Below, piece by piece: positions 1-64,000 of a stretch of 64,000 nucleotides of DNA. Numbering within the stretch: position 1 is the first letter of the stretch; every line of letters begins with the position of its first letter. Where the stretch lies: positions 40,188,464-40,252,463 of the forward strand of contig NC_043011.1 of assembly GCF_006345805.1 (NCBI RefSeq). The letters are read 5' to 3'. This DNA comes from Octopus sinensis. Its lineage: Eukaryota. The position numbers are program-made.

Positions 1-3000
1 AGGTACCCCGATACAATGGTGTGAACTCTAGCAAGAACACAGCAGAAACTGCATTGGCATGATCTGACAGGAAGGTGCTAATCATTATGACAAGAGATGG
101 ATGACACTCATAAGTAGAAAAAGAGATAGTTCCCATGGCAGACATAGAGGATATGACTGAAGAATTTGTTGAAAACAAGTACAGTAACACTGCTTTCACT
201 GAAATTCTCAAGTGTGAAGGAACATTGGTGAATGACAGAGGAGGAGGACTGCAATAAATCTGGCCCTTTGGAGGCTGTACAGGTGGTCACTAAGGAGGAT
301 CAAAACTTCAAAGTGATTATTACCTCCACCTTAGCAAAGACGGAGGTATTGTTTACAGTCACATCTGTTTGTTTGTCCGTGGACAAGATATCTCAAGACC
401 CGCTGGATGGATTCGGATGAAATTTTCAGGGATGTTTGGCCCTGTGACTGGCACGAACTGATTAGATTTTGGAATCAATCGGGTACCAGACAAGGATTCT
501 AGATTATTTTTCCAATTTTTTTTTACTAAAATTTTCGAGTGGTTGGGTTCATTTTTCGTATTCTCGTTTGTGAGAGCAGTCAAGTTTATTTCAAAATCAC
601 CTCTGGCTAATCATTGAGAGGATATTGGTGTTGCCTTGGCAGAGGTTTGCACTTTCTGAGTGCTCTTGTTAATAACGTTTCCATCAAGATGGAGATGTTA
701 GAGATGTGAGTGAAAGGTTAGTGATTGATAAATGTAGAAGGCCACCCTTTAGAGTGTTACCATAGATCTGAGTAATTTCCTGTAGAAAAAGAAAAAGTGG
801 CAATGGGAGTGTATTGTTTATGGGTATTGAAAGGGACATTATCAAGGCCTTGTTGGGTTGGAGTGGTAACTGGAATATTTATTAGCGAAGGTATTATACT
901 GCAGAATCAAATTTTGGGGGAAATATGACTTAGTGTATGAGAACATGGAGTTAGAAGAGGAACAGCATCCAGGAGGATTTCTCAGAGTTGTTGCCAAGAG
1001 AACCGTCCTTTTTGATGATTGATATATAAAGTGGTTCTGTAAGGTTTACAGAAGTACATTGATAAACAGAAGAGCATGTTGCAATGTAAATTCTTTGTTC
1101 ATAAATAAGTATATTCATTGAATGATTATAAATATTTATCCGTAGGTTAGACAGAACTAGAGCATAGAGCGGTGATACAGTCTAAATGGCTTGCAGTGAT
1201 AAATGAGAATCCAAGTTCAAATTTCGCCAAAAGTAGATTATATATATATATAAACTATATAATTAAACATAAATGAGAAAAATATTATTAGATTGCTCAA
1301 CCCTTTGGGAAATAACACTCGCCTTAAAAAGGGAAGGACATAATGAATAATATAGTCCCAGACAAACAAAATCTAGAATCATTGACTGATCACAGTATGA
1401 ACACCTTCGATCATCATAAGTCTGTCTGCTTGATCAGGGCTGACTTCGATTAAACATCAACTACCATAGTGCAAAATAGAATGCCTGAAATTAAAACGAA
1501 ATGGCTATGGTTGATCATAAGGCTGCCCATTCAGAGTCCACCGGGGTCCCAATGATAACGGTGACAAATCTGTGTTTTGGTTTTCTTTTACTTTTAACCA
1601 TGTGGTAAGTCAATTAGTATATAATTATTGATGTCATAATAACACCAGAAGTATAGTCAGCTGGAAACAAAGATTATAGTTGAAATTAGTGGAGTAAACT
1701 GCACAATAATTCTTCTTACAATAGGCACAAGACCTGAAGTTTCATGGGAGAATGCTAGTCGATTATATCGACCCAGTGCTCAACTGGTACTTATTTTACC
1801 GAGCCCGAAAGGATGAAGGACAGACTAGGCCGCGGCGGGATTTGAACTATGAACGTAAAACCGGAAGAATAACAATGAAAGCTAACCCCTTGTTTTTACT
1901 TATAGAACAAGGGACAGTTTAAATTTAAGAACATTTAAATCTATCTAAAACGGTTCGATTACAATACAGTTTTATACATAACACATATACATATATATAT
2001 ACACACACGTACATATATGTGTGTGTATGTATGTATATCGATCTGGTGTAAGAACATAGCACATCAATAACACAGAACGTTTTGAACCTGATGAAATCAT
2101 ATTGTAAACAAATGAGATGGTGTGTAAAAAAGCCAGATGAAAGAAGAGAGAGAGACACAGAAACTGAAGAATGAGAAGCACATGGCTGGAGTTAAAGAAA
2201 GATAGAAAGAGAAAGAGAGAGGAAGGGAGGGAGTAAATATTATGGTTGATGCTAATTTATTTACCTTTGAAACAACGTCAGGAGCTGCAACGATGGAGAT
2301 TTTCGACGATAAGGAAGTGGTCTGGTCAACTGTTTTTAAGTGAATTCGTGTCTCGTCTCCATTGTCTTCAGAGCCGGAGATATTAGATTCCTCTGAACTA
2401 CTCGCATACTGCTGTAATGATAACATCGACGACATTTGTGCTAGAATAAGCTCAGCAGAAATTTGGAATAGTCGCTTCTGATTGGTAGATATTACAGTGA
2501 GTTACATGAAAGCTATAAAAAAAGAAAAAAATATATATATATATTTAGCAGAAACCCCGAAAAACCGATTTAAAAAAAAAAAGAGAACTGATCGATTATA
2601 TTATTTTTTTCTCTGTCTATAATTTTTTTCTAAGTTTCGTTAATATAAATAAAGTATGTAAATGATTAAGTGATGAATAAAAATATTTGGCAGTAAATGA
2701 AGAGCAAGTGACCAGCTTGATTGGATATTATGTCGCCATTTTGTGAATTCTTGATGGAAATGGGATTAGAGTCGGTGGAAAGCATGTGAAAGGCTCTAAA
2801 GGAGTTTCATGTCGCATCTTTTAACTATAATCGAAGGAGGTAAGTACTTCTAGAAAACTAAAAAACCAACACATAGATAACTAATCACTTATCTATGTTT
2901 CGCAATCGATTCCAGAGAATTTTTTTTTTACATATTATTTTCGCGAGAGAAGCGCGGCTGTCTGTCTCATAATATATCTATCTTTATATCCATCTATCCA

Positions 3001-3448
3001 TCTATCTATCATTTTTTTTGTTGTTTTTTTTTTTACTTTTTATTGTGATTCTTTCTTTTTTTTTTTACGAATATTCACACGGCGTGGGCAACTGTGGAAG
3101 CTTAACTTAACTATATACCCAATGTATTTCTCTCCTCTTTCTATGTCTGTCTATTTTTCACTCTACAAGCACCAAACAGTGAAAGAAATCTGCTGCCTCT
3201 ACACACACATATATATATACACCTCTTCCTATCTTTCTACATATATAACTATATCATTACACTCACATATGTATGTGTATACACTCATTCAGTGTATTCT
3301 AATACATATATTTAAAAAAAAAAAAACGAGAATATGTTATATATGTATAATATATATATACACACCACACACACACACAATAATATATATACATATATAT
3401 ATATAATATAGAATAAACTGTATGTATTACACATAGGATATGATTTTA

Positions 3449-62600: not shown

Positions 62601-64000
62601 CAGTGAGTATATGCTACTGATGAAGCCCAAAGAGGCAGAAATGTGTTGTCTAGTATTCTTAGCCCCACTGCTGGGCAATTTTCATGATACCAATATATTT
62701 GTGTTGTTAAACACAGTATGTCCATAAGAGATATGTCTGTACAATTGCTGCATTTGTTTGGATTTTCATGATGTGTTTGCATTAAGTACAAAAAACACAG
62801 ATGGCTATTAAACTGTGCTTTCTTTTTCTTTTCTTTCAGGTCTGTGAGTGAAAGATGCCTTTGATAAAGCGTATAGTCGAGCCAGTCCATGTGAGTAATG
62901 TAGGGGTACACCCAGGTGTAAGGAATGAGTTAGAATGTGTAGCAAACAACACACTAGCTAATACTATTCGCCAGTTGAGCAGCTTGAGCAAACATGCTGA
63001 GGACCTGTTCACTGAGCTGTTTTCAGAAGCCTCTTCTGTGTACAACAGACTTAACCACTTGCAGTCTCGCATGGAGGATGTACACAGAAAGGTGAAACAA
63101 TTGGATGCCACTGTTGAAGAAGGTAATGCTTGGATTTTCTTTTAGAATCTAAATTTTACCCATTTCTTTACTCCTTCAATGTTTTTTTTTTCTTTTGTTA
63201 CTAATTTTTGACATTAATCACTTTTTGATGTTTATACTAGCATTTTTTTTTTATTGCTTTCTATTTGCAGTATTGGCATTTTGTTTTTCTAATTTTTTTT
63301 TGTTTTCGTTTGTTTTCTCCTTGTCTATAAGCAGTGTAATGTGATTATAATAATTACACTGTTTAGATAAATGTATATATGAATTTCAGGTTGGGAAAAA
63401 ATACAACAAAAATTCACAAAAGCAAAAAAAAAAAAAAGAAATGTTGCCAAAAGTAATCATATTGTAGCCAGTTGTGTGTTCTTTCTCTTATAAAAAAAAA
63501 AAAAGAAAAAGAAAAGAAAAGAAAAAATTTTAATCCTAATTAATCTTCATTTTGATTGTCTGCAATAAATTTTTTTGCCAGATTACTATTGCTATTTAAA
63601 AAAAAACATGTAATGAAGATCAATTTTTTTTTTCTTTTGAAATTATAAATTTATTTTTTAAAAAAAAGCATTTCTTGAAATTATTTCACCAAATCCTTTT
63701 TTCAGAATATTTAATATAAATTATTAATTTTTTTCATTTTCAATTCCTCATCCAAAATTCTTAACTCAGATCATTAGTTTTGTAGACATAGTACTAATAA
63801 TTTCTATTTCTAATGAATTTAGATTGATACTAATTATGCGGCTGTTTTCTCGTCAGCATTTCACACACACACACTTAAACATATCAAAAATCGAAGTTTG
63901 AGTAAAGAAGTTAACTGTCGGTTCTTACTTTCAGTCTAGCCATCTATATGCTACACTCCTAAAATTTGTGAAAAATCTGTTGCGTAGTTGATTGAACACT

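What the first reader, a model, noticed from the sequence alone, without database searches (positions are those of the whole stretch)
2265..63122. CDC40 and WAVE/WASF head-to-head: possible ancient conserved bidirectional gene pair with a 5'-UTR intron of up to ~60 kb
Seen: a CDC40-like first exon on the minus strand, a perfect plus-strand donor about 400 bp away (2840), no other host coding exon in between, and a WAVE ATG exon starting with an acceptor at 62840. Knowledge, from memory: human CDC40 and WASF1 are divergent neighbours on 6q21 and WASF1 has non-coding 5' exons. Inference: the pairing predates the protostome-deuterostome split and survived in a lineage known for heavy genome rearrangement. 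That would imply a constrained shared promoter linking a step-II splicing factor and an Arp2/3 activator.
Basis: partly seen in the sequence, partly recalled or inferred. Interest (0 to 1): 0.8.

Follow-up and report, generated by a model that had tools for sequence, protein, structure and literature searches.

The report
Octopus PRP17 and WAVE genes, head-to-head
In this octopus sequence the splicing-factor gene CDC40/PRP17 and the actin-regulator gene WAVE point away from each other just as they do in human and mouse, so the pairing is probably very old, but it is one more example of a known kind of conserved gene pair and the shared promoter is not yet proven.

Summary
All the sequence observations hold. 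The minus-strand exon 2435..2265 is 57/57 identical to the N-terminus of Octopus vulgaris PRP17/CDC40. A perfect plus-strand donor AG|GTAAGT lies at 2839/2840. The exon 62840-63122 starts with an acceptor, has an in-frame stop before its ATG (62855), and matches WASF1 residues 1-89 (E 8.6e-23). No protein-family match was found in 206 other ORFs.

Literature calls human and mouse CDC40/WASF1 a bidirectional gene pair. O. bimaculoides has consecutive RefSeq numbers for the two proteins. In Lingula both sit on a contig of the same length, 880,130 bp. An ancestral bilaterian pairing is therefore likely. Other phyla could not be checked.

A shared promoter and a 60-kb 5'-UTR intron are plausible but unproven.
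- For: two CCAAT boxes, a YY1-like site and the window's CpG maximum lie next to the donor. The ATG exon sits in 45 kb of CpG-depleted, gene-body-like DNA.
- Against: there is no transcript evidence, and CpG-rich DNA extends to about 9.8-17.5 kb, so the start site could lie there.

This is a new member of a known class, conserved 5'-5' microsyntenic pairs. Interest is modest.

The parts
2265..2435 (-). First coding exon of PRP17/CDC40. It has 57 codons, ATG at 2435-2433, phase 0, and a donor GT at 2264-2263.
   Evidence: 57/57 identical to O. vulgaris PRP17 P0004. tblastn places P0004 residues 1-63 at 2435-2253 and nothing else in the window. P0004 matches human PRP17 at E 2.1e-265.
2436..2724 (.). 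Putative shared (bidirectional) promoter region between the CDC40 ATG and the candidate WAVE first exon. It holds two CCAATCAR boxes, at 2478-2485 and 2717-2724 (both CCAAT on the minus strand).
   Evidence: 2 of the window's 5 CCAATCAR sites lie here. The translated flank 2436-2501 is 22/22 identical to a related octopus contig protein, P0005, against 51/57 for the exon. Repeat-masked CpG o/e of 2265-2839 is 1.19, the highest of the 14 stretches measured there. The promoter function is inferred.
2734..2742 (-). YY1-like element (AAAATGGCG on the minus strand; CGCCATTTT on the plus strand).
   Evidence: This is the only occurrence in the window, against 0.17 expected; 16 of 100 shuffles have at least 1. 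The motif was recalled and chosen after reading the sequence. YY1 and NFY are listed among motifs enriched in human bidirectional promoters (PMC3082894 passages).
2725..2839 (+). Candidate non-coding first exon of WAVE. The 5' end is unknown, so 2725 is a guess. It ends at the donor AG|GTAAGT.
   Evidence: The donor is confirmed. It ranks 3rd of 3971 plus-strand GT sites with a recalled heuristic matrix. The upstream ATGs at 2730, 2754, 2760 and 2784 are closed by a stop inside the exon, and ATG 2809 stays open to the donor. Use by WAVE is inferred, not shown.
2840..62839 (+). Interval of 60,000 bp between the candidate donor and the WAVE acceptor. It is a putative 5'-UTR intron, or several introns with unseen UTR exons, and is rich in repeats.
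   Evidence: 0 Pfam families in 197 ORFs. Rfam and tRNA scans found nothing. It contains SINE-like dispersed repeats and microsatellites.
62840..63122 (+). First coding exon of WAVE/SCAR (WASF). It has 15 nt of 5' UTR after the acceptor, ATG at 62855, 89 codons plus 1 base, and donor gtaatg.
   Evidence: WASF1 chain 3p8c_D residues 1-89, E 8.6e-23. 89/89 identical to O. bimaculoides WASF3-like P0008. An in-frame TGA lies at 62849-62851.
1001..9800 (.). CpG-undepleted domain around the divergent gene starts. It is presumed to be unmethylated in the germ line.
   Evidence: Repeat-masked CpG o/e is 0.83, against 0.22 for 17501-64000 and 0.32 for 1-1000.
17501..64000 (.). CpG-depleted domain that encloses the WAVE ATG exon, with a gene-body-like signature.
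   Evidence: Repeat-masked CpG o/e is 0.22, with sub-blocks at 0.20-0.24. In octopus, methylation clusters on gene bodies and is low on intergenic DNA, transposons and promoters (PMC9476566 passages).

Best explanation
The window, from Octopus vulgaris or a very close relative, holds the 5' ends of two divergently transcribed genes. One is the splicing factor PRP17/CDC40 (minus strand) and the other is the single invertebrate WAVE/SCAR gene (plus strand). This is the same pair that forms the CDC40/WASF1 bidirectional pair in human and mouse, so the arrangement was most likely inherited from the bilaterian ancestor.

Most likely mechanism: both genes start inside one CpG-rich region of a few hundred base pairs that carries NF-Y-type CCAAT boxes and a YY1-like site. 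WAVE transcription begins with a short non-coding exon ending at 2839. That exon is spliced, directly or through unseen UTR exons, across up to 60,000 bp of repeat-rich intron to the ATG exon at 62840.

Shown: the gene identities, the orientation, the splice signals, and the absence of a recognisable gene between them.

Inferred: ancestry (about 0.85). WAVE starting at least 45 kb upstream of its ATG (about 0.8). The 2839 donor being the WAVE exon-1 donor, and hence a truly shared promoter (about 0.45-0.5).
For: Identities.

Human and mouse pair in print: PMC11780882 passages and a figure legend in PMC6212772.

Second octopus: consecutive RefSeq accessions for PRP17-like and WASF3-like. That numbering follows gene order is a recalled convention.

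Lingula: PRP17 (P0093) and WAVE (P0012) are both listed with longest contig 880,130 bp. Gigantopelta: both are on a 120,622,278-bp sequence, which is weak evidence.

The WAVE ATG exon opens with a strong acceptor 15 nt before the ATG and has an in-frame stop, so at least one upstream non-coding exon is expected.

CpG: the masked o/e peaks at 1.19 over 2265-2839. It is 0.22 over 17501-64000, including around the ATG exon. This fits the octopus pattern of methylated gene bodies and unmethylated promoters and intergenic DNA (PMC9476566). In shared repeat copies, 54 CG sites are TG/CA in the 18-64 kb copies against 19 the other way (the pairs are not independent).

Promoter-like cluster: 2 of the 5 CCAATCAR sites, the only AAAATGGCG and 1 of the 3 plus-strand AGGTAAGT all fall within 2478-2845. 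NFY and YY1 motifs are enriched in human bidirectional promoters (PMC3082894). Orthologous bidirectional promoters predicted 5' UTRs correctly in 9 of 10 and 6 of 7 mammalian cases (PMC2688522 abstract).

The flank 2436-2501 is conserved 22/22 at the translated level in a related octopus.
Against: No RNA, CAGE or chromatin data were available, so no junction or start site is shown.

The motifs were chosen after reading the sequence. CCAATCAR is not enriched in the window as a whole (5 found, 6.59 expected). One AAAATGGCG or more arises in 16 of 100 shuffles.

Donor rank is a poor guide: the real WAVE donor at 63123 ranks only 99th of 3971.

CpG-undepleted DNA runs about 7 kb beyond the candidate exon, to about 9.8 kb, and again over 13-17.5 kb (o/e 0.71). 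On the CDC40 side depletion sets in within about 1.4 kb. That asymmetry fits a WAVE start, or an extra one, nearer 8-17 kb.

The vertebrate ZBTB24 core motif is absent from the octopus promoter region; the 2 hits lie at 24582 and 58622, at chance level.

Small exons or a gene without a Pfam domain in the interval cannot be excluded.

Adjacency was not tested in arthropods, annelids, echinoderms, amphioxus or cnidarians.
Confidence: 0.55

Rival explanations
1. The two genes are conserved divergent neighbours but have separate promoters. WAVE starts elsewhere in the CpG-rich zone, around 8-10 kb or 13-17.5 kb where CpG depletion begins. The 2839 donor then belongs to a divergent non-coding transcript of the CDC40 promoter, or is unused.
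For: CpG-undepleted DNA continues to about 9.8 kb (o/e 0.76-0.96) and recurs at 13-17.5 kb (0.71) before the depleted block starts. CDC40 becomes depleted within about 1.4 kb of its start. Another top-scoring donor lies at 16996, ranked 2nd. Perfect donors also occur at 23925 and 27061. Donor rank is not diagnostic.
Against: Much of the CpG signal at 5.5-6.7 kb and 16.2-16.7 kb comes from SINE copies and triplet repeats. The masked CpG maximum and the only CCAAT/CCAAT/YY1 cluster lie beside the 2839 donor. The human and mouse orthologues are described as sharing the proximal promoter region.
Confidence: 0.33
2. An unrecognised gene (lineage-specific, with small exons, or a long non-coding RNA) lies between the two. 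It owns the 2.7-kb exon, so CDC40 and WAVE are not immediate neighbours.
For: The ORF scan sees only ORFs of >=60 aa with Pfam domains. ATG 2809 stays open into the donor.
Against: 0 of 197 interval ORFs hit Pfam. The only gene-like stretch is a broken IS1595-like transposase. The O. bimaculoides RefSeq numbers for the two proteins are consecutive.
Confidence: 0.08
3. The octopus and vertebrate adjacencies arose independently, or the octopus one is an assembly error. There is then no ancient pair.
For: Only a few lineages were examined. Coleoid genomes are heavily reorganised (PMC9023564).
Against: For one named pair among roughly 10^4 genes, identical partner and identical orientation by chance is of the order of 1e-4 (my estimate). 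Two octopus species agree. The Lingula proteins share a contig length of 880,130 bp. The window has no N.
Confidence: 0.04

Closest known systems
Human and mouse CDC40/WASF1 bidirectional gene pair on 6q21 (the chromosome band is recalled)
   Same: The same two orthologous genes in the same divergent 5'-5' orientation. The literature describes a proximal, potentially bidirectional, promoter bound by ZBTB24 (PMC11780882 passages; PMC6212772 legend).
   Different: In octopus the two ATGs are 60.4 kb apart and start-site spacing is unknown. The ZBTB24 core motif is absent from 2436-2840. The octopus gene is the single pre-duplication WAVE, named WASF3-like by NCBI, not a WASF1 paralogue.
Conserved ancestral microsyntenic pairs (CAMPs), e.g. 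HSPE1-HSPD1 (Irimia et al. 2012, PMC3514665)
   Same: Non-paralogous neighbours kept together across distant animal phyla. Most CAMPs are 5'-5' (54.8% against 26.7% in controls), which the authors explain by shared cis-regulation (passages).
   Different: Neither 'Wasf' nor 'Cdc40' occurs in that paper's main text (0 occurrences each). Its pair lists are in supplements that were closed. Co-expression was not testable here.
Metazoan microsyntenies retained in coleoid cephalopods (Schmidbaur et al. 2022, PMC9023564)
   Same: Ancient linkages survive the large-scale reorganisation of coleoid genomes. 275 metazoan blocks are retained in Euprymna scolopes (passage).
   Different: Those blocks need at least 3 genes, whereas this is a two-gene pair. 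Whether it lies inside a listed block is unknown because the supplements were closed.
Orthologous bidirectional promoters used to predict unannotated 5' UTRs in mammals (Piontkivska et al. 2009, PMC2688522)
   Same: The same logic applies: a conserved head-to-head partner predicts where the missing 5' UTR exon lies. The predictions were confirmed in 9 of 10 and 6 of 7 cases (abstract).
   Different: That test was within mammals only. Here the comparison spans protostomes and deuterostomes and lacks any transcript confirmation.

Membership tests
PRP17/CDC40 (step-II splicing factor) | Sequence orthology of the encoded protein to PRP17 | tested here: met
   The exon peptide is 57/57 identical to O. 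vulgaris PRP17. That protein matches human PRP17 5mqf_E at E 2.1e-265 over residues 28-573 against 35-579. The WD40 part lies outside the window.
WAVE/SCAR (WASF) family | N-terminal WAVE homology region at the very start of the protein | tested here: met
   Residues 1-89 align to residues 1-89 of WASF1 chains 3p8c_D, 7usc_C and 4n78_D (E 8.6e-23 to 2.7e-22). At E<=1e-10 there were 75 hits among 121 candidates. Every one that a source names with a function is called a WASF-family protein; some carry no name or only 'hypothetical', 'predicted' or 'unnamed'.
WAVE/SCAR (WASF) family | Proline-rich middle and C-terminal WH2/central/acidic (VCA) region | not tested
   These parts lie outside the window. 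The O. bimaculoides protein P0008 shows proline runs and an acidic tail when read by eye. No domain search of it was run.
[quoted passage not shown] | Two genes on opposite strands with their 5' ends facing and no gene between | tested here: met
   The orientation is read directly. 0 Pfam families in 197 interval ORFs. RefSeq numbers are consecutive in O. bimaculoides. Small or domain-less genes are not excluded.
[quoted passage not shown] | Transcription start sites less than 1 kb apart (PMC3082894, PMC2688522) | tested here: inconclusive
   A candidate exon and donor lie 404 bp from the CDC40 ATG, with CCAAT/YY1-like motifs and the CpG peak beside them. No start-site data exist here, and alternative CpG-rich zones extend to 17.5 kb.
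[quoted passage not shown] | Co-regulation or co-expression of the two genes | not testable with these tools
   No expression data were available.
Conserved ancestral microsyntenic pair (CAMP) | Adjacency present in several distant phyla | tested here: inconclusive
   Mammals from the literature. Two octopods (window). Gigantopelta has both on the same 120.6-Mb sequence. No other species occurs in both hit lists.

The most novel reading that the evidence does not exclude
What has been kept since the bilaterian ancestor is the shared start region itself, not merely gene adjacency. As the octopus genome filled with repeats, the WAVE 5'-UTR intron stretched to 60 kb while its first exon stayed tethered within about 400 bp of the PRP17 start. 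This would make the locus a natural experiment showing that a bidirectional core promoter, rather than distal enhancers, is the constrained unit.
Probability: 0.35. Interest if true: 0.5.

Novelty: new member of a known kind. Interest (0 to 1): 0.3.

Why it matters
If the pair is ancestral, it adds a clean example to the set of ancient 5'-5' gene pairs: a constitutive splicing factor next to a regulated actin nucleation-promoting factor. It would have survived both the vertebrate genome duplications and the coleoid genome reshuffling. It also gives a practical annotation rule for octopus, which is to look for the WAVE first exon beside CDC40. Finally, it offers a testable case for whether promoter sharing is what holds such pairs together. 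It does not open a new kind of biology.

Tried and rejected
- Pfam and PDB searches of the 57-aa CDC40 exon alone found nothing. Identity came from the large protein set instead.
- Pfam on the WAVE exon gave only sub-threshold coiled-coil noise, the best being DUF5798 at 23.4 bits against a cut-off of 27.
- A first translation of the WAVE exon was one base out of frame and was redone.
- Rfam at gathering thresholds and ARAGORN gave 0 hits.
- I planned to test adjacency in other phyla through neighbouring accession numbers. The listing of cluster members answered that the shared database is switched off. A smaller query got the same answer and I stopped.
- The ZBTB24 core motif of the vertebrate promoter is not near the octopus promoter.
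- The first plus-strand poly(A) hexamer after 2720 is at 3412. Against a density of 1.6 per kb this is not informative.
- Donor-matrix ranking was rejected as a discriminator, because the true WAVE donor ranks 99th.
- Regarding the CpG-rich blocks at 5.5-6.7 kb and 16.2-16.7 kb as extra promoters: they are largely SINE copies and triplet repeats. The question is left open rather than settled.
Paper supplements, where microsynteny pair lists sit, were closed.
- No structure, complex or representative-library job was run, because none bears on the question.
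Full report
WHAT IS THERE

The window has no N. It is AT-rich (about 36% G+C) and full of microsatellites and dispersed repeats.

On the minus strand an ATG at 2435-2433 opens a 57-codon exon. The exon ends at 2265 and is followed by a GT donor at 2264-2263. Searched alone against the large protein set, it gave 4 hits at E<=0.01 among 79 candidates. The best is NCBI 'pre-mRNA-processing factor 17 [Octopus vulgaris]' at 57/57 identity. 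Next come an unnamed 104-aa protein from a short contig (89%), Argonauta hians (79%) and O. bimaculoides XP_014771475.1 (78% over 89% of the query). The exon alone has no Pfam or PDB match. The full O. vulgaris protein matches human PRP17 in spliceosome structures at E 2.1e-265. Only exon 1 is in the window.

On the plus strand, a polypyrimidine tract and cag|g acceptor at 62839/62840 precede an ATG at 62855, with an in-frame TGA just upstream. There follow 89 codons plus one base up to 63122 and a gtaatg donor. The peptide aligns residue 1-89 to residue 1-89 of WASF1 chains (E 8.6e-23). It is 89/89 identical to O. bimaculoides XP_014771476.1 'WASF3-like'. The plus-strand donor AG|GTAAGT at 2839/2840 is real. 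Each exon was searched on its own.

WHAT LIES BETWEEN

I listed 232 stop-to-stop ORFs of at least 60 aa in the window. I dropped 23 of low entropy and 3 that overlap the two exons. The other 206 (197 of them in 2885-62929) were scanned against Pfam, and none matched at E<=1e-3. Rfam and the tRNA scan were empty.

The only gene-like stretch is at 44765-45557. Two overlapping frames there hit successive parts of the IS1595 transposase model weakly (E 0.15 for profile positions 4-72; E 0.021 for positions 123-177). The language-model search points to IS1595 zinc-ribbon clusters at 0.90-0.92. This is a broken transposon relic, not a host gene. Short exons and domain-less genes would escape this test.

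IS THE PAIRING OLD?

PMC11780882 (passages read) lists CDC40/WASF1 among 'bidirectional gene pairs' carrying the ZBTB24 motif in a proximal, potentially bidirectional, promoter. It reports the same targets in mouse cells. PMC6212772 shows a 'WASF1/CDC40 locus' panel (legend read).

Three further observations bear on ancestry.
- In O. bimaculoides the two RefSeq proteins have consecutive accession numbers. By NCBI's usual numbering along scaffolds (recalled, not tested) this suggests adjacent models with none between.
- In the brachiopod Lingula anatina the PRP17 and WAVE proteins are both listed with a longest contig of 880,130 bp. They therefore almost certainly share one scaffold. For a genome of roughly 0.4 Gb (recalled) that is about a 0.2% coincidence.
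- In Gigantopelta aegis both lie on a 120.6-Mb sequence, which says little.

No other species appears in both hit lists (75 hits; best 120 of 2599). The look-up that would have given accessions was switched off. Ancestry before the protostome-deuterostome split is thus well supported by parsimony. It was not demonstrated lineage by lineage.

Two full-text searches (cdc40 + wasf1, 15 papers; cdc40 + wasf, 17 papers) returned no title or abstract on evolutionary conservation of the pair. Supplementary lists of the microsynteny surveys could not be opened.

IS THE PROMOTER SHARED, AND IS THERE A 60-KB 5'-UTR INTRON?

Because the ATG exon starts at an acceptor 15 nt before the ATG, an upstream non-coding exon is expected. 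It must lie between 2436 and 62839 unless the genes overlap.

Evidence for a start near CDC40:
- After masking repeats, CpG o/e is 1.19 over 2265-2839, the highest of the 14 stretches measured. It is 0.83 over 1001-9800, 0.30 over 9801-13000, 0.71 over 13001-17500 and 0.22 over 17501-64000. The 1161 bp from the WAVE exon onward score 0.40 (raw profile).
- In octopus, methylation is concentrated on the bodies of constitutively expressed genes. It is low on intergenic DNA, transposons and promoters (PMC9476566, passages). So 45 kb of depleted DNA upstream of the ATG exon looks like transcribed gene body.
- Within shared repeat families, CG sites have decayed to TG/CA 54 times in the 18-64 kb copies against 19 times the other way. 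The pairs reuse copies, so this is indicative only.
- Beside the donor lie 2 of the window's 5 CCAATCAR boxes (2478, 2717) and its only AAAATGGCG (2734). My Poisson estimate for two such boxes in 405 bp is about 5e-4. The motifs were picked after reading the sequence.
- NFY and YY1 sites are among the few motifs enriched in human bidirectional promoters (PMC3082894, passages).
- The translated flank 2436-2501, which includes the first box, is 22/22 identical in a related octopus. The exon is 51/57 identical and the intron start 15/18.

Evidence against, or limiting the claim:
- There is no transcript evidence at all.
- CpG-rich DNA continues 7 kb past the candidate exon and recurs at 13-17.5 kb. 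CDC40 becomes depleted within about 1.4 kb. A start site, or a second one, nearer 8-17 kb is therefore a serious rival.
- Part of that signal is SINE copies (5.5-6.7 kb) and triplet repeats (16.2-16.7 kb).
- Donor strength does not decide. The 2840 site ranks 3rd of 3971, but the true donor at 63123 ranks 99th.
- The ZBTB24 motif is not conserved.

If 2839 is joined directly to 62840, the last upstream ATG (2809) would be closed by the TGA at 62845-62847, so WAVE would still start at 62855 (read by coordinates).

COMPARISON AND VERDICT

This works like, and very probably is, a conserved ancestral 5'-5' microsyntenic pair of the kind surveyed by Irimia et al. In that survey 54.8% of such pairs are divergent and shared regulation is the favoured cause. 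Coleoids are known to retain hundreds of metazoan microsyntenies despite reorganisation (275 in Euprymna). Orthologous bidirectional promoters are a proven guide to missing 5' UTR exons within mammals.

The ancient-pair reading is supported. The shared-promoter and 60-kb-intron reading is plausible at roughly even odds. Novelty is that of a new member of a known kind, and interest is modest.

LEFT UNCHECKED

- Animal genome collections (none were available).
- Metagenome contigs and viral contigs (closed).
- Paper supplements (closed).
- Accession look-ups (switched off).

Noticed in passing
window 12444-13946 (+): A pyrimidine-only block of about 1.3-1.5 kb on the plus strand, made of (TCTA)n/(TCTC)n and 16-22-bp variants. 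GC skew is -0.55 for 12001-14000. It would form a giant CU-rich tract in any plus-strand pre-mRNA.
   Followed up: partly
window 9044-9192: A long, nearly perfect hairpin with MFE -77.7 kcal/mol and z -7.96; 0 of 200 shuffles fold as well. Its 17-base arm core recurs with 1 mismatch at 13146-13162, inside the TC-rich array. It looks like an inverted duplication of that satellite, and there is no Rfam hit.
   Followed up: partly
window 44765-45557 (+): A frameshifted relic of an IS1595-like (zinc-ribbon plus DDE) transposase in two overlapping frames. The model hits are weak but collinear, and language-model leads agree.
   Followed up: yes
window 5550-6650; also 1705-1869, 38002-38169, 43187-43339, 62101-62273: At least three adjacent copies of a CpG-rich SINE-like element, with further copies elsewhere. 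The copy at 62.1-62.3 kb has lost almost all CpGs (0-1 against 4-8 in its partners). The 38-kb and 43-kb copies keep theirs. ARAGORN calls no tRNA.
   Followed up: partly
window 16200-16700: A block of triplet repeats (GGT/GGC/GTT and complements) that accounts for a local CpG peak (o/e about 1.0). It reads as poly-His/Pro/Tyr in ORF lists and is unlikely to be coding.
   Followed up: partly
window 2809-2839 (+) with 62840-62847: The last upstream ATG of the candidate WAVE 5' exon stays open to the donor. After a direct junction it would stop at the TGA 62845-62847, 7 nt before the WAVE ATG. This is a possible short regulatory uORF.
   Followed up: no
protein P0007 (O. bimaculoides XP_014771475.1): This RefSeq model of PRP17 starts at a different Met (MKQYASG...). 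It ends early at 504 aa with an odd tail (…NIKFFFFFLDNT), where the O. vulgaris protein has 573 aa. It looks like a model or assembly defect.
   Followed up: no
window 2436-2501 against protein P0005: The stretch just upstream of the CDC40 ATG is more conserved at the translated level (22/22) than the exon itself (51/57) in a related octopus. This hints at a constrained 5' UTR or core promoter.
   Followed up: partly
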